Source: Microcoleus sp.
GTDB taxonomy: Bacteria; Cyanobacteriota; Cyanobacteriia; Cyanobacteriales; Microcoleaceae
Reading direction: 5' to 3'
DNA: 32,035 nt
Assembly: GCA_042408215.1 (NCBI GenBank)
Contig: JAYFMW010000023.1
Span: 1 to 32,035, forward strand
In this document: in pieces, positions 6,501 through 26,530 of the stretch
How positions within the stretch are numbered: position 1 is the stretch's first letter
Layout: every line of letters begins with the position of its first letter
Notes under the pieces: generated by a model
Seen by the model: the letters and a program-made list of their open reading frames with translations, nothing else
What the model was told of the DNA's origin: nothing
The model's database searches: none
Made by a program: the position numbers and the translations under genes

Positions 6501-7121
6501 TTACTGGTTGAAAGGCAAAATCTATGAACAAGTGAAACGAATTGCCGATCGAGATTATGCAATCTTAACAACTCGCGTTAGCCCCATGAATACAAGTCGC
6601 CTTACCCCGTGGGGCGATCGAGTTTGGAGAGGATGCAAATTCCCCTCAACTCCACTTGAATTTGATGGCTATCAAAATGGTGCTGCATTAGTCGCAACTG
6701 TTGATGGGTACAGAGCTGCGTAGTGGCTTGAATCCCGATCGTCATCTGGCGTTAAAAGCAATCAAGCGTAACCTCCGGGAGGCTACGCTTAATCTGAAAA
6801 GCTAGACGCAGTAATGCTTTGGCTGTACAATCAAACTAGAACGGTGTCAGCGCGACTACCACGAAAGATTGTACGAGGCTTGGGTAAACTGCCTCAAGAT
6901 TCCTACTTCACTACGCTCTATTTGGCCGTGGCTCGTCCCACAAGCTGAAGGAAGCGACTACAGAGGAGTCGAAAAAGTGAACTTTAGTGGAATATTGTGA
7001 TTTATTTCGATTTACTCCGACTAGGGGTAGCGAGCAGCAAGCAAAATAACTCAACATTTGTGGTAAAACCTTTACAAATCTCTTGATGGTATGCTATGTT
7101 TATACTATTGGGGTCAAATTT

Positions 7122-7322
7122 ATGTTGAGGCAGAAAGTTGTTCGTGTTACAGCCACCGAGTTTGAACTTGAAGATGGGTCAATATTCCCTCATGCAGTTG
7201 AGTTGGAAGATGTGCCTAGTCCAGAAGAGTTTCAGAAGTTCTATGACCATTGGTTTTCTATCTTTGAGGATTTAGCCAATGGAGAAACTTCTGACGATCG
7301 GACAAGTTGCCAAGCAGCTTAA
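7122..7322 (+). CDS. Small acidic hypothetical protein (66 aa) at the IS607 left end, overlapping the tnpA start
   Basis: ATG at 7122; MLRQKVVRVTATEFELEDGSIFPHAVELEDVPSPEEFQKFYDHW reads as a globular beta-beta-alpha sequence. Confidence 0.6.
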   Translation: MLRQKVVRVTATEFELEDGSIFPHAVELEDVPSPEEFQKFYDHWFSIFEDLANGETSDDRTSCQAA

Positions 7323-7884
7323 TGTTACAGTTAAGACTCTGAGGCTGTGGGATGAAGAAGCTAAATTATCTGCCATACGGACTCCTGGTAAACATAGAAT
7401 GTATCGAGAGTCCGATATTGCAAAGTTTATAGGCACTTATATAGAAGATAAATCAGTTGAGTTACCAGTCTGTGTTTACTGTAGAGTTAGTAGCCATGAC
7501 CAGAAGCAAAAAGGTGATTTAGAGCGTCAGCAAGGCAGAGTTTTAAATTACTGCGCCAATAAAGGTTACAAGGTTGAATATTCATTGGCAGAAGTTGCTT
7601 CTGGTATGTCTGATACTAGAGCTAAGTTGCATAAATTGTTCCGGCTTGCGATTGATCAGAAGATTTCCCAACTAATCATTGAACATCGAGATAGACTGTG
7701 CAGATTTAACTTTGAAATATTTAAGTTATTTTTCGAGACTCATGGTGTTGAAGTTGAATATATGGAAGAGACTTTACCTAAAACATATGAAGCTGAGTTA
7801 GTAGAAGATATGCTGTCACTAATGTCTTCTTTCTCAGCTAGGATTTACGGCAAACGTTCGGCCGAACGAAGGAAGAAGAAATGA
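7279..7884 (+). CDS. tnpA: IS607 TnpA serine recombinase
   Basis: LLTIGQVAKQLNVTVKTLRLWD HTH, TPGKHRMY, YCRVSS, EVASG, EHRDRLCRF, IYGKRS. Confidence 0.95.
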   Translation: MEKLLTIGQVAKQLNVTVKTLRLWDEEAKLSAIRTPGKHRMYRESDIAKFIGTYIEDKSVELPVCVYCRVSSHDQKQKGDLERQQGRVLNYCANKGYKVEYSLAEVASGMSDTRAKLHKLFRLAIDQKISQLIIEHRDRLCRFNFEIFKLFFETHGVEVEYMEETLPKTYEAELVEDMLSLMSSFSARIYGKRSAERRKKK

Positions 7885-9119
7885 TTTTAGTAGAGAGACA
7901 CATCATTAAACAATCCCATCAGCATTGGCAGTCCATAGATCGACTATCTTTCTTATCTAAGAATCTCTACAATGCAGCTAATTACATCTGTCGTCAATAC
8001 TTCTTTGCTAGTAGTAAGAAATATAGTCTCACCGACTTATATCATCTGATTAAAAATTCAGTTGACTATCGTGCGTTACCGACTAAAGTTAGCAAACAAA
8101 TAATTAAGCGTCTGGTTTCTACTTGGACAAGTTATTTTGAAGCTCACAAAGAATGGCATCAGCATCCTGCTAAGTTCTTAGGTCAACCCAGAATACCAAG
8201 ATATAAAGATAAAATCAAAGGACGCAATCTAGTTATCTACCATCACGAATCAGTTTACCAAGCTGAACTTAAGAAAGGAATCTGCCATTTATCGATGAGT
8301 GAGATTAAGATTCCCACTAAAGTAGATAACATTGTCGAAGTGAGATTAGTACCTCGTGCCACTTGTTATGTAGTAGAAATAGTCTATTACAAGCAGGAGC
8401 AACAACGAGCGTCTAGTCATTATGTGGCTGGTATTGACCTTGGCTTAACTAACTTAGTAGCCCTAACTTCAAACCAACCAGGTTTCAGACCGATTCTGAT
8501 TAATGGACGACCGCTCAAGTCGGTAAACCAATTTTATAACAAGACTAAAGCTGAATTACAAACTCAATTAGATGGGGAGCGTAAAACAAGTAAGAGAATT
8601 CAATCTCTGACTGCCTATCGCAATCGCTATGTTGACAATTATCTGCACAATACAAGCAGAAAAGTTGTCAATTTACTACAAGAGTCGGAGATTGGTATCT
8701 TAGTAATTGGTAAGAATGAGAACTGGAAACAGAATCTGAATATAGGTAAAAGAAATAATCAGTCATTCACACAGATTCCCCATGCAAAATTAATTGACCA
8801 AATTACATATAAATGTCAATTAGCAGGAATCAAGGTCGTAGTCACTGAAGAGTCTTATACTTCAAAGACGAGTGCTTTAGATTTAGAAACACCCCGCAAA
8901 CATAATACCTATTTGGGTAAACGTGTTAAGAGAGGCTTGTTTCAATCTCAGTCAGGAGTCAAACTCAATGCTGACGTTAATGGTTCCTTACAAATAACTA
9001 GAAAAGTATTCCCTAATGCCTATACAGTAGAAGGGATAGCGAGTGCAGCCGTTGCACCTTTAAAGGTAACACCTTTATTAAGTGTCAAGAGTGAGCAAAT
9101 GAAGATTTGTTCAGTTTAA
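7881..9119 (+). CDS. tnpB: TnpB RNA-guided endonuclease (IS607-type, rearranged RuvC-II, no Zn finger)
   Basis: SKNLYNAANY, RuvC-I GIDLGLTNL, IGKNENWKQ in place of the canonical Glu, TEESYTSK, RuvC-III NADVNGSLQI; ATGA overlap with tnpA. Confidence 0.93.
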   Translation: MILVERHIIKQSHQHWQSIDRLSFLSKNLYNAANYICRQYFFASSKKYSLTDLYHLIKNSVDYRALPTKVSKQIIKRLVSTWTSYFEAHKEWHQHPAKFLGQPRIPRYKDKIKGRNLVIYHHESVYQAELKKGICHLSMSEIKIPTKVDNIVEVRLVPRATCYVVEIVYYKQEQQRASSHYVAGIDLGLTNLVALTSNQPGFRPILINGRPLKSVNQFYNKTKAELQTQLDGERKTSKRIQSLTAYRNRYVDNYLHNTSRKVVNLLQESEIGILVIGKNENWKQNLNIGKRNNQSFTQIPHAKLIDQITYKCQLAGIKVVVTEESYTSKTSALDLETPRKHNTYLGKRVKRGLFQSQSGVKLNADVNGSLQITRKVFPNAYTVEGIASAAVAPLKVTPLLSVKSEQMKICSV

Positions 9120-9177
9120 CACGAACGGTTACTCTCAGGTATCGAGTTAGATTTATTGCTATATTTTGATAACATCA

Positions 9178-21446: not shown

Positions 21447-21927
21447 CAAGAATACCCTGAAAACCCTGTGACTTTAGTCCAGGGATGAAAGGGCGTTGCA
21501 GGATAAATCCAGCCTGCCCTCTAGATCAAGAAAATGGGTCTAAAACCCCGTCCTTCTAGGACGGCTTTAAGCTAAAATTGAGAAAAGTCGGGATGAGGCA
21601 TCGCCACGACTCTAAATGGACATTTCAGGAGAGTCAGACTACTTTCGGTAGCTTCGCCTTTCGGAAGTGTCAAGAATCACCGCACTTTTAGGGCGGTGAG
21701 TATGTCAAGCAAGACACAAACCACATTCTGTTACCAGAAAAATGTGGGATGGATACACAGAAGCAGGTCTATACCAGCAAATGCCTACCACAAGTAGCCA
21801 TAGACTCAGCAATGGGCGAGTGGGTAGTGGGTTATTGACAAACCCTTTAAGCATCAAGATTTGGGTGGATTCATCCCCCAAAAATTATCCTTAAGCATCC
21901 CCGCGTCTTTAGACCGGGGAGTGTCAA
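21447..21927 (+). mobile_element. Non-autonomous IS200/IS605-type mini-element (outer)
   Basis: CTGAT|CAAGAA start, left hairpin CCCTG...CAGGG, right hairpin TCCCCG...CGGGGA followed by GTGTCAA; no ORF. Confidence 0.7.
21527..21708 (+). mobile_element. Non-autonomous IS200/IS605-type mini-element (inner, 182 bp), probable TnpB omegaRNA scaffold
   Basis: TAGAT|CAAGAA start, left hairpin CCGTCCT-TCT-AGGACGG, right hairpin TCACCGC...GCGGTGA followed by GTATGTCAA. Confidence 0.75.
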
Positions 21928-21982
21928 TGATATAGATGATCAACAATTTTCGGAGTTGCATCAGGCGTGGATATTTCAAATC

Positions 21983-22016
21983 AAAAGCCTGAGAGCAAGT
22001 GTTCCCAGGCTTTTTT
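21983..22016. terminator. Bidirectional intrinsic terminator downstream of rpaA
   Basis: AAAAGCCTG...CAGGCTTTTTT. Confidence 0.75.
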
Positions 22017-22056
22017 AGCTAGATTCGTAACTGCTTGTTGCATCTGGCGTCCTAGT

Positions 22057-22797
22057 TCAAGCCGATGATTTGCTTTCCTCGGCTACTTGCTCGTTGCTGG
22101 GTAACTCCAGACAATAACCGGCCCCGTATACGGTTTTGATGTACCGAGGATGGCGGGGATCGGGTTCCATCTTGGTTCTCAGGTGTCTGATGTGTACGCG
22201 AATGGTTTCGATGTCGTCGTCGGGGTCGTAGCCCCAGACTTCTTTGAGAATTTCGCTGGGAGAGACTGTCTGACCGTGGCGCTGGAGCAAGCAGTGGAGC
22301 AACTCGAACTCTAGGTGGGTCAGTTTGACTGTCTGAACGTACCAAACCGCTTCAAACCTTTCGGGGACAAGGGTCAGCGGGCCATAATTCAGGATTTCTG
22401 AGTGTTTGGCGGCTTGGGGGATGCGGTCTGTGCGCCTCAGTAGGGCTCGCACTCGCGCCAGCATTTCTTCTAATTCAAAGGGCTTGGTCAGGTAGTCGTC
22501 GGCGCCGGAGTTGAAGCCTTCTACTTTGTCTTGAGTTTGACTTAAGGCTGTCAACATCAAGACGGGAATGTCTGCTGTGCGATCGTCTCGCCGCAAGCGC
22601 TGACACACTGTGAATCCGTCTACTCTAGGCAGCATCAGGTCTAGGACGATCAGGTCGGGGAGCAGTTGTATGGCTAGTGCCTGACCTTTGATGCCGTCTT
22701 CTGCATGGGTTACTTCGTACCCAGCCATTTCTAGGTTGATGGCTACGAGTTCGGCGATCGCCGCGTCATCATCAATAACAAGTATCCGAGGCATCAT
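22057..22797 (-). CDS. rpaA: OmpR-family response regulator RpaA (circadian output regulator)
   Basis: [62 protein letters not shown] are characteristic of RpaA. Confidence 0.93.
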
Positions 22798-22880
22798 AAA
22801 AAAGTTCGGTAAGTGGGAAACGAGCGAGTCTTTAGACCTGAGAGGGAAACTATAAGGGTGGTTTTAACCACCGTGAATCT

Positions 22881-24178
22881 TCAAAATGCGTAACTGTAAC
22901 CATCTTTGTGATGAACGGTCTTGGCAGTATTTCTGACTAATTCCTGACACCAATTCGGGTGCAGAGATATTGAAATGACCCACACGTTCTAACAGCAACC
23001 CGCCCGATATAAGTGCCGACTTTTCTTCCCAGAGGAGACAACAATCGCTTTCACGATGTCGCCCGTTTGAAAACCTTTGACAAACTTAAATCTAGGGACA
23101 TACCGAGATGGAAAACCAAACTTGTCAGTGCGGCACATTTGGCGCGTCCCATGACCCGTAGCCTTGATTAACAGTGGTTGATTTGTTAATAGTTTAAGCG
23201 ATGTCAATTTGTCCCACACAAGCTGCGTCGATCCAGTGGGCTTTAGGTAAGTTCAAGCGAGGGCGGTTGAACTTAGTTAAACCGCCACTGAACCAGTAGA
23301 AGACAGGTAACCCAGTTTCCTTGAGTCGATTAAACAATGCCCAAGCGAGTTGAATTGACGGCTGCTGCATCTTTTAAAGGACGCTTTGCCTGAGACAAGA
23401 ATGCTGCTTCAGAAAGCTCGGGCTTTTTAGCTAGGAACTGCTCAATATCCTTGAGTCCCTTTCTTGATGTTGCACCTTTCGCAAGCAAGGCAGAGGTTAG
23501 AGATTCTGTTGCTTCCGCCCTTAGCTTTAGGATGGATATGTTCAACTTGTAACGGCACATTTTCAACACCGCAGTCAGCGCATTTTCCGCTCCCATTTGT
23601 TAAGCAGATATTCTCTAACTTCGTAGCCTATGCAACTCGCCTTGCCGATACTCAACTCCAGAGATTTCAGGGATTCTCTAATCTGCTGGAAGTCAAACCG
23701 TGACTAAGCTCTTGAACAATTGCGCCAATCGGTGCAAGTCTGATTAGACTTATTCACCCAAGTCAAGGTGGTTTCAACCCGGTGTTGGAGGCTAGGCGCT
23801 AACCAGCCTTTAGGGCGGGTACGGTTGAGAAATCTGGCTTGACGATAACGGGTATGGCGGTTTCTTCGCCCTCTACGCAGTGAGTGGCGAGATTCTAAAC
23901 TCGCTTTAATCGCCTGACCCCGATGGGTTAGTTCAGCACCCCAAATGACTCTTTCTCCTTGCAGCAAGGCGACGCCAGTTGTTTGAGAGCCAGGATCTAT
24001 TTTTAAGACATGATTGGCTCTGGAGTTGCTGTTACTTCCTCCTTCAGAATTATGGCGAACGGATACCTTCTGAAAACTGCCGCTTTACCGGACGTTAATA
24101 ACTTACGAGCCAATCCTGGCCGAATAGGATCAAGCGGCTCGTTTTTTGGCATCAAGAACGAAATATAAAGTTAGACAT
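22881..24178 (-). pseudogene. iscB: iscB pseudogene (multiple frameshifts)
   Basis: PLMP-like VLDAKNEPLDPIRPGLARKLL, RuvC-I KIDPGSQTTG, bridge helix RHSLRRGRRNRHTRYRQARFLNR, HNH VEHIHPKAKGGSNRISNLCLACERCN, RuvC-III HWIDAACVG, C-terminal HKDGYSYAF*. Confidence 0.93.
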
Positions 24179-24180
24179 TT

Positions 24181-24418
24181 TTGTAGTCCTCCCTTGCGGG
24201 GTAAAGTTCGCTTCGTCAATGTTATTTGGGCTTGTTAAGGTAGTAGCACTATAAAGCGTGACTTTAGAATTGTTTAACTAATACCGACAGAGCAAGAAAC
24301 TAGCGTCGCATTTCAGGGTGTCGTGACCCAAATAACGTAGCCAATTAAGGCTTAGACTGGTCAGGATAGCTCACAATTTCTTGCAAGCTCAGTGGCGTTG
24401 ACTCCCTGAGTTCCTGAC
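24181..24418 (-). ncRNA. IscB omegaRNA (HEARO-like)
   Basis: Immediately upstream of iscB; motifs TGACCAGTCTAAG, CTACGTT, ACACCCTGAAATGC, AACATTGACGAAGCGAACTTTACC typical of HEARO RNAs. Confidence 0.85.
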
Positions 24419-24460
24419 AAATCTTGCCTGGGGTTGATTTTTTGTCTGCTCGTAGCCTAA

Positions 24461-24489
24461 ACTTTAGCAGAATGTGCGGGCGCTTTCAC
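24461..24489 (-). promoter_or_regulatory. Putative native rpaA promoter
   Basis: GTGAAA-N17-TAAAGT with an extended TGn -10, ~40 nt upstream of the IscB insertion point. Confidence 0.45.
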
Positions 24490-24704
24490 CGGCTCCGACT
24501 GTCCTTCTCTGGGAAATTTGAGAGCCGACTGGGCCTCGATGGGATGCCAAATTAGTCGAGCTTGCTTTGGAGTCACGCACATTCAATAGTCTGCTTCCTT
24601 TGAGTTCCAGGTCGAGCGCTGTCTTTAAGGCGAAAATTAGACAATTGGGTTAAAAATTGTTAAAGGGAGAAAAAAAAATTTGGGTTTTTTTTGAGGGTTA
24701 GCCC

Positions 24705-24818
24705 TTGCTTTTTTTGGCTCTTGACTGTATAATTAGATAATGGGAGTATGACTACTTGTGCCTAAAAATGTCAATATTTCCATTATCTAATGGTATCATA
24801 CAAATATCAAGAAGTCAA
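24705..24818. promoter_or_regulatory. Face-to-face dual promoter/hairpin module, type A copy 1
   Basis: + TTGCTT-N17-TATAAT; - TTGACT-N17-TACCAT; central IR ATTAGATAATGG...CCATTATCTAAT. Confidence 0.65.
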
Positions 24819-24928
24819 TCCCAAAACCCGAAAATTTGGGCCGATTTTTTTTATCCCTGGGTAAAATTTTGCCCTCGCCCTGGAGGTAAATCACCGAAAA
24901 AACCGACCGGCGGGACAACTACCGAGAA

Positions 24929-25115
24929 TTAGCTGGCTTGCTCTCTAGCAGACTCAGTAATTTTGCTGGCAACATTTGGCTGGCTGCCTAATTTTTGGAA
25001 GTAAAGGGGGCCGACTGTGACTAAGAATATTGTATAACCAACGGCTTGCAAAAGATACAGTCGCTCTCTGTAGCCAAATAGTGCTTTGAGGAGGATTCCG
25101 GGAAATTGGCGATCG
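24929..25115 (-). pseudogene. Duplicated 3' fragment of the FTR1 permease gene
   Basis: DRQFPGILLKALFGYRE...EQAS* nearly identical to the end of 25574-26530. Confidence 0.9.
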
Positions 25116-25348
25116 AATGTGCGGGCGCTTTCACCGGCTCCGACTGTGCTTCTCTGGGAAATTTGAGAGCCGACTGGGCCTCGATGGGATGCCAAATTAG
25201 TCGAGCTTGCTTTGGAGTCACGCACATTCAATAGTCTGCTTCCTTTGAGTTCCAGGTCGAGCGCTGTCTTTAAGGCGAAAATTAGACAATTGGGTTAAAA
25301 ATTGTTAAAGGGAGAAAAAAAAATTTGGGTTTTTTTGAGGGTTAGCCC

Positions 25349-25462
25349 TTGCTTTTTTTGGCTCTTGACTGTATAATTAGATAATGGGAGTATGACTACT
25401 TGTGCCTAAAAATGTCAATATTTCCATTATCTAATGGTATCATACAAATATCAAGAAGTCAA
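25349..25462. promoter_or_regulatory. Face-to-face dual promoter/hairpin module, type A copy 2
   Basis: Same sequence as 24705-24818. Confidence 0.65.
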
Positions 25463-25573
25463 TCCCAAAACCCGAAAATTTGGGCCGATTTTTTTTTATC
25501 TCTGGGTAAAATTTTGCCCTCGCCCTGGAGGTAAATCACCGAAAAAACCGACCGCCGGGACAACTACCGAGAA

Positions 25574-26530
25574 TTAGCTGGCTTGCTCTTTAGCAGACTC
25601 AGTAATTTTGCTGGCAACATTTGGCTGGCCGCCTAATTTTTGGAAGTAAAGGGGGCCGACTGTGACTAAGAATATTGTATAACCAACGGCTTGCAAAAGA
25701 TACAGTCGCTCTCTGTAGCCAAATAGTGCTTTGAGGAGGATTCCGGGAAATTGGCGATCGGGCAAAATTGCGGCTGCATTCCAGACCATCGGGCCTAAAA
25801 TACAGGAGTGGAGTTGTGAAGTGCGATCGAAATAAACACAAATCCCTGCATACTTGCTATCCGTCTGGGACAAAATGGCAGCAGCTTGGTCAAAATGTTT
25901 GAGTGCAGATACTGCTAAACCCGCTACAATTAGCAGCAACAAAATCCCCATAAACTTGAAAAACTGGCGGAGCTCAATTTTGACACCCCACTTGAAGATT
26001 AGCGCGCCAATGATTGCAGCCCCAAGCAAACCGCCCAAAGCACCTAAAGCCGGAGTGAAACCTTGTTGAAATTGAGCGCTGACAAATATAACTGTTTCAA
26101 AACCTTCGCGAAGTACAGCGATCAAAATTAAGCCGAATACGCCCCAGCCAGCATTAGTATTTTCTTTCAAAGCTGCTGTAACGGCTCCTTCCACTTCAGC
26201 TTTGAGAAAGCGCGCTTGCTGAGTCATCCAAATTAGCATCCAGCTTAGCATTACTATGGCGACAATTCCCAGAGAACCTTCGAGCAATTGCTTGATTACT
26301 GGTGCGTAAGGCTGATTTGATGTTGAGAGTACGTGGAGTAACTGATTGAATAATGCACCTACACAAGCGCTAGCAGCAATGCCGACTCCGATACCTGTAT
26401 AAACCCAAGAATTGAGGTGACTTTGCTCTGCTTTTTTTAAGCAAGCTAGGACTATTCCGACGACTAAGGCGGCTTCTACGCCTTCGCGGAGGGTGATTAC
26501 AAATGTTGGGATGGCTTCAGTAAAGTTCAT
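25574..26530 (-). CDS. FTR1/EfeU-family high-affinity iron permease
   Basis: Two RExxE motifs (REGVE, REGFE), multiple TM helices. Confidence 0.95.
   Translation of the reverse strand: MNFTEAIPTFVITLREGVEAALVVGIVLACLKKAEQSHLNSWVYTGIGVGIAASACVGALFNQLLHVLSTSNQPYAPVIKQLLEGSLGIVAIVMLSWMLIWMTQQARFLKAEVEGAVTAALKENTNAGWGVFGLILIAVLREGFETVIFVSAQFQQGFTPALGALGGLLGAAIIGALIFKWGVKIELRQFFKFMGILLLLIVAGLAVSALKHFDQAAAILSQTDSKYAGICVYFDRTSQLHSCILGPMVWNAAAILPDRQFPGILLKALFGYRERLYLLQAVGYTIFLVTVGPLYFQKLGGQPNVASKITESAKEQAS

What the first reader, a model, noticed from the sequence alone, without database searches (positions are those of the whole stretch)
22790..24490. IscB/omegaRNA transposon inserted exactly at the rpaA start codon; its guide is the rpaA 5'UTR
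Seen: the element's 3' end (...CCGAACTTTTTT) abuts ATGATGCCT of rpaA. Its 5' end (GTCAGGAAC) is preceded by ...AAAATCAACCCCAGGCAAGATTT and a plausible promoter (24461-24489). Known: IscB guides come from the 5' flank of the omegaRNA, and the TAM lies 3' of the target; ATGA is, from memory, the TAM reported for Allochromatium warmingii IscB. Inference: the empty site was CAGGCAAGATTT|ATGA, so the TAM is the start codon. The rpaA promoter would now transcribe guide + omegaRNA + dead iscB + rpaA, giving the circadian output regulator a 1.6-kb leader. iscB is heavily frameshifted while the omegaRNA looks intact, so it could guide IscB in trans against un-inserted rpaA alleles.
Basis: partly seen in the sequence, partly recalled or inferred. 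Interest (0 to 1): 0.7.

Follow-up and report, generated by a model that had tools for sequence, protein, structure and literature searches.

The report
IscB transposon replaces rpaA leader
A known kind of small mobile element (an IscB guide-RNA transposon with a dead nuclease gene) sits directly in front of the clock-output gene rpaA, where it has replaced the gene's own 191-base upstream leader, and its guide sequence matches the untouched version of the same site, which it would likely direct a nuclease to cut.

Summary
Window 22798-24418 (minus strand) is a 1621-base IscB/omegaRNA (HEARO) element of the published ISC N|ATGA class. Its omegaRNA is intact. Its iscB carries 18 frameshifting indels. 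Its 3' end abuts the ATGATG start of rpaA.

The window is a whole contig (C23) that runs colinear with part of contig C28 of the same assembly. In C28, one close relative and one metagenome contig, CAGGCAAGATTT is followed by ATGACCAACAG, 191 bases upstream of the rpaA ATG. All 22 same-genus loci keep that conserved leader, which includes a likely TATAAT box. So this allele has the element and has lost the native leader between two ATGA sites. The guide comes from DNA upstream of the likely promoter, not from the 5'UTR.

Two independent metagenomes hold contigs that cross the same rpaA-element junction. rpaA stays intact, and the differences seen are mostly synonymous.

The same two-ATGA leader replacement occurs at an EF-G gene: 2 of 14 resolved copies, against 12 simple start-codon insertions. 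The guide's only genomic match next to ATGA is the empty C28 site.

This scan has already reported start-codon landing of this family several times, in this genome too. The leader replacement was not among those reports. All 19 indels in iscB are added bases, which I cannot explain.

The parts
22798..24418 (-). Whole non-autonomous ISC (IscB/omegaRNA) element, 1621 bases
   Evidence: The ends are set by the identical mini copy on C6, by the empty allele C28:256596/256597 and 256787/256788, and by an X6 contig that joins 22797 to 24419 with 191 letters between.
24201..24418 (-). omegaRNA scaffold (HEARO RNA)
   Evidence: Rfam RF02033 at 140.5 bits over the full-length model. It is 100% identical over 218 nt to C6:210182-210399.
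24419..24438 (-). Flank that would be read as the guide (ATCAACCCCAGGCAAGATTT)
   Evidence: The 14-, 16- and 20-mers occur only here and at C28:256577-256596, where ATGA follows. No other site in the genome has up to 3 mismatches plus ATGA.
22880..24178 (-). iscB pseudogene
   Evidence: RRXRR domain pieces. There are 19 indel events, all extra bases, 18 of them frame-shifting, with 16 to 25 stops per frame. The rpaA-linked contigs of X1 and X2 share the extra bases at the sites they cover (table 4).
22798..22885 (-). 3' terminal region with a subterminal hairpin (22857-22872). By the convention described in the Meers preprint this would be the transposase's left end.
   Evidence: The motif TTTCCCACTTACCG plus a T-rich spacer is shared by 47 ends in the genome, including ends next to Y1 transposase genes such as C13:77060 beside 77171-77515.
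22794..22797 (-). ATGA: the rpaA start codon plus A, the family's target/TAM motif at the 3' junction
   Evidence: N|ATGA is described in PMC4810608.
22057..22797 (-). rpaA, intact, 246 codons
   Evidence: PDB RpaA match at E 1.6e-143. It differs from the C28 copy at 11 codons, 9 synonymous and 2 not. All 7 listed differences to the X1 contig are synonymous.
24745..24824 (-). Nearest upstream promoter-like sites that could read into guide and omegaRNA (consensus match only)
   Evidence: TTGACA-18-CATACT and TTGATA-17-GATAAT, 10 of 12 matches each. They lie inside a 645-base tandem duplication.

Best explanation
This is a non-autonomous IscB/omegaRNA transposon of the ISC N|ATGA class with a dead nuclease gene; it lies between an upstream ATGA site and the ATGA of the rpaA start codon, so it has replaced the gene's native 191-base leader, most likely because two neighbouring insertions of the element recombined.

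Shown:
- The element's identity and its ends.
- The empty allele, which reads ...CAAGATTT|ATGACC...(191 bases)...AAATA|ATGATG.
- The loss of exactly that stretch in this allele.
- The same junction in two other samples.
- An intact rpaA.
- A second case of the same structure at an EF-G gene.

Inferred:
- Y1 transposases encoded elsewhere in the genome moved the element.
- It came to sit at both ATGA sites. This could happen by a short hop, with the vacated site refilled by guide-directed cutting and copying from a sister chromosome.
- Recombination between the two direct copies then removed the leader and one copy.
- rpaA would now be transcribed by read-through from upstream or from within the element, and translated without its former ribosome-binding stretch.
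- The omegaRNA, with a nuclease from one of the intact paralogues, would cut the wild-type allele at CAAGATTT|ATGA.
For: Identity: HEARO at 140.5 bits; RRXRR pieces; an identical mini copy; the N|ATGA target published for cyanobacterial ISC elements.

Empty allele: C28 of the same assembly, G008 and an X6 contig with 191 letters between the flanks.

The leader is native: 22 of 22 same-genus loci keep it directly before ATGATGCC, and 7 of 9 aligned wild-type sequences keep CTTATAAT.

Both junctions are canonical family junctions.

Independent samples: X1 record 1 (1428 nt) spans 21901-23338 and X2 record 18 spans 22489-23240.

Recurrence: at EF-G (C9:14585), relatives read ...GATTACA|ATGAGTAGG...(about 157 nt)...TAAAT|ATGAAAGAT, while G000 has the element between the same two points.

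The leader attracts this family: G019 carries a mini copy at a third ATGA in the leader.

Machinery in trans: at least 13 open Y1 transposase frames. Nine intact IscB frames, two of them in elements matching the window's along nearly the whole length, ends included (C8:36976-38550 and C3:407065-408660).

Target: the guide 16-mer plus ATGA occurs only at C28.
Against: - No intermediate was found: no element-leader-element form, and no element at only one of the two sites with the leader kept. Neither junction occurs in any of the 78 other genus genomes. The junction patterns found nothing in the species-representative genome collection or in the JGI metagenome contigs.
- A one-step loss between the two ATGA repeats would give the same product.
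- 12 of 14 resolved copies are plain insertions, so leader loss is the exception.
- There is no RNA evidence for this allele. The one RNA contig at rpaA (X14) appears to carry a different sequence upstream of the ATG, presumably the wild-type leader.
- A terminator-like hairpin sits 60 nt before the ATG.
- It is unknown whether any intact IscB accepts this omegaRNA. The closest omegaRNA next to an intact iscB is 82% identical.
- If C23 and C28 share a cell, the surviving empty site argues against efficient cutting.
Confidence: 0.55

Rival explanations
1. One insertion at the upstream ATGA (191 bases before rpaA) was followed by a spontaneous deletion between the two 4-base ATGA repeats, by replication slippage or microhomology repair. 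This needs no second copy and no transposase.
For: The lost stretch starts with ATGA and is followed by ATGA. The product is the same as in the best explanation. No intermediate with two copies was found.
Against: Four bases is very little homology. The same exact structure recurs at EF-G with canonical junctions on both sides. No selective reason is evident for losing a conserved promoter-leader.
Confidence: 0.2
2. The element first landed on the start codon, the family's usual place. The Y1 transposase then joined the element's omegaRNA-side end to the DNA just past the next upstream ATGA (TCAT on the transposase's strand). This would be an intramolecular 'adjacent deletion' that also gave the element a new guide.
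For: 12 of 14 resolved copies sit as plain insertions on start codons. The distal end of the lost stretch lies exactly at a target motif. Joining that end to DNA behind the target motif is a normal half-step of integration (from general knowledge of IS200/IS605 chemistry, recalled).
Against: No such reaction is described in the papers I could read. It was not tested here. It needs the target-recognising sequence of the other end to engage a site beyond this end.
Confidence: 0.15
3. One reading: the element inserted directly at the rpaA start codon of an ancestor whose sequence read CAGGCAAGATTT|ATGATG, so that the guide is the rpaA 5'UTR.
For: This is the present-day geometry, and the family does favour start codons.
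Against: All 22 same-genus loci, C28 and the X6 contig have the leader between the two points. In the two sequences that share the guide (C28, G008), it is followed by ATGACCAACAG, 191 bases upstream.
Confidence: 0.03
4. Assembly artefact: contig C23 is a chimera or a poorly polished haplotig, and the junction and the frameshifts are errors.
For: C23 duplicates 78% of its length in C28. All 19 indels are added bases, which resembles some long-read error profiles.
Against: Short-read contigs from two other samples cross the rpaA-element junction. The X1 contig keeps the extra bases at 22920, 23202, 23287 and 23299, and the X2 contig keeps the two of these that it covers. A C23-only 2.1-kb segment has open frames of 201 and 412 aa. 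The omegaRNA and the shared blocks show no indel noise.
Confidence: 0.02

Closest known systems
ISC transposons with the N|ATGA target (for example ISC1-1_MA of Microcystis aeruginosa; Kapitonov, Makarova and Koonin 2016, PMC4810608, passages read)
   Same: It encodes IscB and has no transposase of its own. Its 5' end starts with GT. It has subterminal hairpins and no target duplication. It inserts immediately 5' of ATGA. It shares an end with IS200/IS605 elements that carry a Y1 transposase.
   Different: iscB is dead. The two junctions correspond to two different ATGA sites 191 bases apart in the empty allele. The passages I read describe only plain insertions, and 'start codon' does not occur in that paper.
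IscB-omegaRNA (OMEGA) systems and the transposon-retention model of Meers et al. (bioRxiv 10.1101/2023.03.14.532601, passages read)
   Same: The omegaRNA lies upstream of iscB and is bounded by a transposon end. The guide is encoded outside the element and so needs read-in transcription. Guide plus flanking motif re-create the empty donor site as a target.
   Different: Activity was not tested here. The nuclease would have to come from a paralogue. The present guide targets a site that is not the element's present 3' neighbour.
HEARO RNA (Rfam RF02033)
   Same: Full-length match above the gathering score. The genome holds 70 matches at E up to 0.001, 64 of them over the family's cut-off.
   Different: None for the RNA itself. 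I recall that the original description (Weinberg 2009) mentions ATGA or GTGA insertion sites, but that paper is not held and I could not check it.
Protein-less omegaRNA mini-elements on start codons reported earlier in this scan (for example e1-7816776 and e1-8289116, same genome)
   Same: Same family, same ATGA flank and the same start-codon habit. My own count is 27 of 47 ends before open frames of 100 codons or more.
   Different: Those were plain insertions of mini copies. This one is full length with a dead gene and has removed the host leader.
Classical IS-mediated deletion between two direct copies, and promoter replacement by IS elements
   Same: A host regulatory region is lost and the gene becomes dependent on transcription from or through the IS.
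   Different: Here both end points are dictated by a 4-base target motif, and the surviving copy's guide would aim at the wild-type allele.

Membership tests
HEARO / IscB omegaRNA (Rfam RF02033) | Covariance-model score at or above the gathering score over the whole model | tested here: met
   140.5 bits against a gathering score of 83, model positions 1-211 of 211.
IscB protein family | RRXRR / RuvC-HNH protein encoded directly downstream of the omegaRNA | tested here: met
   Pfam RRXRR PF14239 matches two pieces (42.3 and 103.1 bits). tblastn with an intact paralogue covers residues 4-422 in three frames.
IscB protein family | Open, translatable reading frame (a functional nuclease) | tested here: not met
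   18 frame-shifting indels and 16 to 25 stops per frame. The longest open piece is 88 aa.
ISC / IS200-IS605 superfamily, N|ATGA group | Insertion immediately 5' of ATGA with no target duplication, shown by an empty site | tested here: met
   5' junction: empty sites in C28, G008 and X6 read CAAGATTT|ATGA. 3' junction: the element abuts ATGA. The two are different ATGA sites, so this is not a single plain insertion.
ISC / IS200-IS605 superfamily, N|ATGA group | Subterminal hairpins instead of terminal inverted repeats, and an end shared with Y1-transposase elements | tested here: met
   Hairpin GGTGGTTAAAACCACC at 22857-22872. The same terminal motif lies next to Y1 transposase genes at C13:77060, C30:360684 and C17:182907.
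ISC / IS200-IS605 superfamily, N|ATGA group | Mobilisation by a Y1 (HUH) transposase | not testable with these tools
   The genome has 20 matches to PF01797 at E up to 0.001, at least 13 of them full-length and open. Movement itself was not tested.
OMEGA RNA-guided nuclease system (functional) | Guide-dependent cleavage next to the TAM | not testable with these tools
   Only the target is shown: the 16- to 20-mer plus ATGA at C28:256577-256600. ATGA is cleaved by the related nickase DtIsrB (PMC9581776, passages read).
RpaA (circadian output response regulator) | Full-length similarity to characterised RpaA, clearly above other OmpR-family regulators | tested here: met
   PDB 9dvt_R RpaA at 479.6 bits, against 163.5 bits for the next hit, MtrA.

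The most novel reading that the evidence does not exclude
ATGA-targeting IscB elements do more than park on start codons. By hopping to a neighbouring ATGA, being copied back into the vacated site by their own guide-directed cut, and then recombining, they excise the host DNA between the two sites. This replaces promoters and leaders of core genes (here the clock-output regulator rpaA and an EF-G gene). It also leaves a guide aimed at the wild-type allele, so the promoter-replacement allele could spread through polyploid chromosomes and populations like a natural RNA-guided gene drive.
Probability: 0.15. Interest if true: 0.8.

Novelty: new member of a known kind. Interest (0 to 1): 0.5.

Why it matters
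RpaA is the master output regulator of the cyanobacterial clock. An allele whose conserved promoter-leader has been swapped for a 1.6-kb transposon, and which still keeps an intact coding sequence in several samples, is a natural experiment on how this gene can be expressed.

The pair of alleles also fits the published idea that IscB and TnpB elements use their guide to cut the empty site and get copied back. Here an occupied allele with a guide, and an empty allele with a perfect target plus ATGA, are both found in nature. They can be tested directly with the genome's own intact nucleases.

The second case at EF-G suggests that loss of the DNA between two target motifs is a recurring by-product of this family. 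It would be a route to promoter replacement and guide change that I did not find described.

Tried and rejected
- Assembly artefact: rejected on the X1 and X2 contigs and on open frames in a C23-only segment.
- A compensating outward promoter in the element's 3' end: TTCACG-17-TATAGT at 22877-22849 scores 9 of 12. But the TATAG variant is one step from TAGAG, which other subfamilies carry. No weight given.
- Searches for the junctions elsewhere. The 3'-junction patterns found nothing in metagenome contigs or genome contigs. Neither junction pattern matched any of the 78 other genus genomes.
- Sequencing runs: no run held half or more of the sampled words. All four runs laid were contigs, so depth and absence say little. 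X1 and X2 contigs reach only 27 to 29 bases across 24418/24419, under the tool's 31-base rule for bridging. No wild-type contig was laid in X1, which does not prove absence.
It remains open whether element-plus-leader intermediates occur in those runs.
- Literature:
  - Weinberg 2009 is not held.
  - Searches 'HEARO'+'ATGA', 'IscB'+'start codon'+'TAM'+'insertion', 'IS605'+'start codon'+'ATGA'+'transposon' and 'IscB'+'ATGA' gave no listing that suggested a description of start-codon bias or of two-site leader loss.
  - I read passages only in PMC4810608, the Meers preprint, PMC9581776, PMC13565253 and PMC9755519.
  - No supplements were opened; the supplementary figures of PMC4810608 may show more target sites.
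- Survey loci left unresolved: L19, C5:596343, C3:533785, C8:84300.
- NCBIfam could not name RpaA because it has no model for it.
Full report
**What is there**

On the minus strand, window 22798-24418 is a 1621-base mobile element.
- Its first 218 bases (24418 down to 24201) match the Rfam family HEARO, the omegaRNA of IscB, over the whole model at 140.5 bits against a gathering score of 83.
- An iscB remnant follows, with its ATG at 24178. Two open pieces match Pfam RRXRR, and an intact paralogue aligns over residues 4-422 in three different frames.
- Aligned to the closest intact copy (C3:79410-80681, 81.5% identity), the remnant has 19 indel events, 18 of them frame-shifting.
- The last 88 bases carry a hairpin (22857-22872) and the motif TTTCCCACTTACCG plus a T-rich spacer. 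They end ...CCGAACTTTTTT directly before ATGATGCCT.
- The gene that starts there is RpaA. The solved RpaA of PDB 9dvt matches at E 1.6e-143, residue 1 to residue 1, far above any other response regulator.

One exception: the consensus scan finds no promoter-like site at 24461-24489. The nearest lie at 24745-24824.

**The family in this genome**

The window is a whole contig (C23) of a 7.36-Mb assembly with 30 contigs.
- The genome holds 70 HEARO matches at E up to 0.001, 64 of them over the family's cut-off.
- It holds nine intact IscB frames of 422-428 aa. Two of them (C8:36976-38550, C3:407065-408660) sit in elements that match the window's element along nearly its whole length, ends included.
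- It holds 20 matches to the Y1 transposase family, at least 13 of them full-length and open. Some lie right beside the same terminal motif.
- A mini copy at C6:209966-210399 has an omegaRNA 100% identical to the window's and ends ...TTTTTT|ATGACTATT.

I selected 47 ends with the terminal motif, a T-rich spacer and ATGA behind them. Only 4 further motif matches with a T-rich spacer lack ATGA.
- N|ATGA is the published target of cyanobacterial ISC transposons (PMC4810608, passages read).
- 27 of the 47 ATGs open frames of 100 codons or more. The figure is 15% for all 50,012 ATGA sites in the genome. A crude model gives 14% among sites that would not break a gene (binomial p about 4e-12).
- Of 20 flanking frames scanned against NCBIfam, 17 matched a family. 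In most of these the match starts within the first few residues of both protein and profile, for example ChlB 1 to 1, PntA 1 to 1, HisG 2 to 1, PetL 4 to 1 and Psb27 3 to 2.

This start-codon habit has been reported several times earlier in this scan, including for this genome. I did not find it in the papers I could search. Weinberg 2009 is not held.

**The empty site**

C23 is colinear with C28:247665-284412 of the same assembly, at 97 to 100% identity in blocks, broken by several insertions and deletions. No other small contig is such a duplicate.

In C28 the text reads ...AATCAACCCCAGGCAAGATTT|ATGACCAACAG...(191 bases)...GGTGAGATAAATA|ATGATGCCTCGG.
- The close relative G008 reads the same.
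- A contig of metagenome run X6 joins window 22797 to 24419 with 191 letters between.
- All 22 same-genus loci fetched keep the conserved leader directly before ATGATGCC.
- 7 of 9 aligned wild-type sequences keep CTTATAAT about 150 bases before the ATG, a likely -10 box.

The occupied allele has lost exactly the stretch from that ATGA up to the start codon's ATGA.

The guide is DNA upstream of the likely promoter, not 5'UTR. The native promoter, leader and the bases before the start codon are gone from this allele.

**Is the allele real, and is rpaA alive?**

Short-read contigs from two unrelated samples cross the rpaA-element junction: X1 record 1 covers 21901-23338 and X2 record 18 covers 22489-23240.
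- Where an X6 contig lacks the window's extra bases in iscB, X1 keeps them at six sites (22920, 23202, 23287, 23299, 23453, 23583) and X2 at the four of these that it covers (table 4). The frameshifts are therefore real and shared.
- X1 and X2 contigs also reach 27 to 29 bases across the 5' junction. This is below the tool's 31-base rule for bridging.
- A C23-only 2.1-kb segment has open frames of 201 and 412 aa, a serine recombinase and a TnpB. This argues against a noisy contig.

rpaA is intact.
- It differs from the C28 copy at 11 codons, 9 synonymous and 2 not.
- All 7 differences listed against the X1 contig are synonymous. That table was cut, so more differences may exist.
- In X1 only the occupied allele was laid. 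Contigs cannot prove that the other allele is absent.

Neither junction occurs in any of the 78 other genus genomes. The 3'-junction patterns found nothing in the species-representative collection or in the JGI metagenome contigs.

**Is leader loss a one-off?**

I compared 17 further copies with five relatives, which makes 18 copies with rpaA.

| Outcome | Copies |
|---|---|
| Plain insertion on a start codon, flanks adjacent in a relative (12) | ChlB, PntA, CobH, Psb27, C5:490433, C6:209965, LepB, C14:66460, C29:75579, C17:257533, C6:775177, PetM |
| Leader between two ATGA sites replaced (2) | rpaA, EF-G |
| Unresolved (4) | L19, C5:596343, C3:533785, C8:84300 |

The EF-G copy at C9:14585 repeats the rpaA structure. 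G008 and G005 read ...CTTCAGATTACA|ATGAGTAGG...(about 157 bases)...CAGTAAAT|ATGAAAGATCTC, and G000 has the element between exactly these two points. That makes 2 of 14 resolved copies.

In another species (G019), a mini copy sits at a third ATGA inside the rpaA leader with the leader kept on both sides.

**How it most likely works**

Shown: the identity, the ends, the empty allele, the loss of the leader, and its recurrence.

Inferred: both junctions are canonical insertion junctions at two different target motifs. The simplest route is that the element came to occupy both ATGA sites and the two direct copies recombined, which removes the leader and one copy.
- A short hop by a Y1 transposase would place the second copy.
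- The vacated site could be refilled as in the retention model of Meers et al. (passages read).
- That would give the tandem intermediate.
- I found no such intermediate.

Two rivals give the same product: a slippage deletion between the 4-base repeats, and a transposase-made adjacent deletion starting from a start-codon copy.

Expression of rpaA from this allele would depend on read-through or on a promoter within the element. The scan offers only consensus-level sites, and it also shows a terminator-like hairpin 60 bases before the ATG.

The guide's 14-, 16- and 20-mers occur only at the occupied site and at C28, where ATGA follows. The omegaRNA could therefore aim a paralogous IscB at the wild-type allele. 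ATGA is accepted as TAM by the related nickase DtIsrB (PMC9581776, passages read). Whether any IscB here accepts this omegaRNA is unknown.

**Unexplained**

All 19 indels in this iscB are added bases, net +27, and none lies in the omegaRNA or in the 3' end. The seven other broken iscB copies in the genome have only one or two indels each. I have no explanation for an insertion-only decay.

**Verdict**

This is a new member of a known class (ISC, N|ATGA) with an unusual outcome: the promoter-leader of rpaA has been replaced, the occupied and empty alleles both occur in nature, and the structure recurs at a second gene.

The element type and its target are already known, and start-codon landing has been seen before in this scan. 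The two-site leader loss and the matched allele pair are the parts worth following up.

Noticed in passing
G000 contig C9:14585-15165 (locus L069): A 580-base omegaRNA mini element in front of an EF-G gene has replaced about 157 bases of leader between an upstream ATGA and the start-codon ATGA. This is the same structure as at rpaA.
   Followed up: yes
window 22880-24178: All 19 indels of the iscB remnant are added bases (net +27), with none in the omegaRNA or the terminal region. The other broken iscB copies in the genome have one or two indels each. Unexplained.
   Followed up: partly
window 24470-25760: A tandem duplication of a 645-base unit (98.9% identical) that includes the last 60 or so codons of the upstream FTR1-family permease gene (25574-26530) and promoter-like sites. 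It is also present in C28.
   Followed up: partly
window 7029-9126: A 2.1-kb insertion absent from C28, with open frames for a MerR-HTH serine recombinase (201 aa) and a TnpB (412 aa) that overlap by 4 bases. It looks like an IS607-type element.
   Followed up: partly
L036 (G019), about 95 to 525 bases upstream of rpaA: In another species of the genus, a mini HEARO element of about 430 bases sits at CCTTA|ATGAAGC inside the rpaA leader, in the gene's orientation, with the leader kept on both sides.
   Followed up: partly
L032 (G005), upstream of rpaA beyond about -135: The conserved TATAAT-bearing part of the leader is replaced by unrelated sequence that carries a hairpin (CCCACTCCTGGCCAGGGGTGGGAG). 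The rpaA upstream region seems to take many insertions.
   Followed up: no
window 1-32035 against C28:247665-284412: The two versions of this 32- to 37-kb region differ by at least five insertions or deletions. Their identity is a mosaic of blocks from 97.4% to 100%. No other small contig of the assembly is duplicated like this.
   Followed up: partly
window 24188-24413 in run X14: Metatranscriptome contigs of an omegaRNA 98% like this one lie at word depths of 153 to 237, with other guides attached. This hints that relatives of this omegaRNA are abundant in RNA, though it does not prove transcription.
   Followed up: no
C3:79410-80886 and similar copies: The iscB closest to the window's (82% identity) sits in an element whose omegaRNA and 3' end do not match the window's. 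Nuclease gene and ends appear to be shuffled between element types.
   Followed up: no
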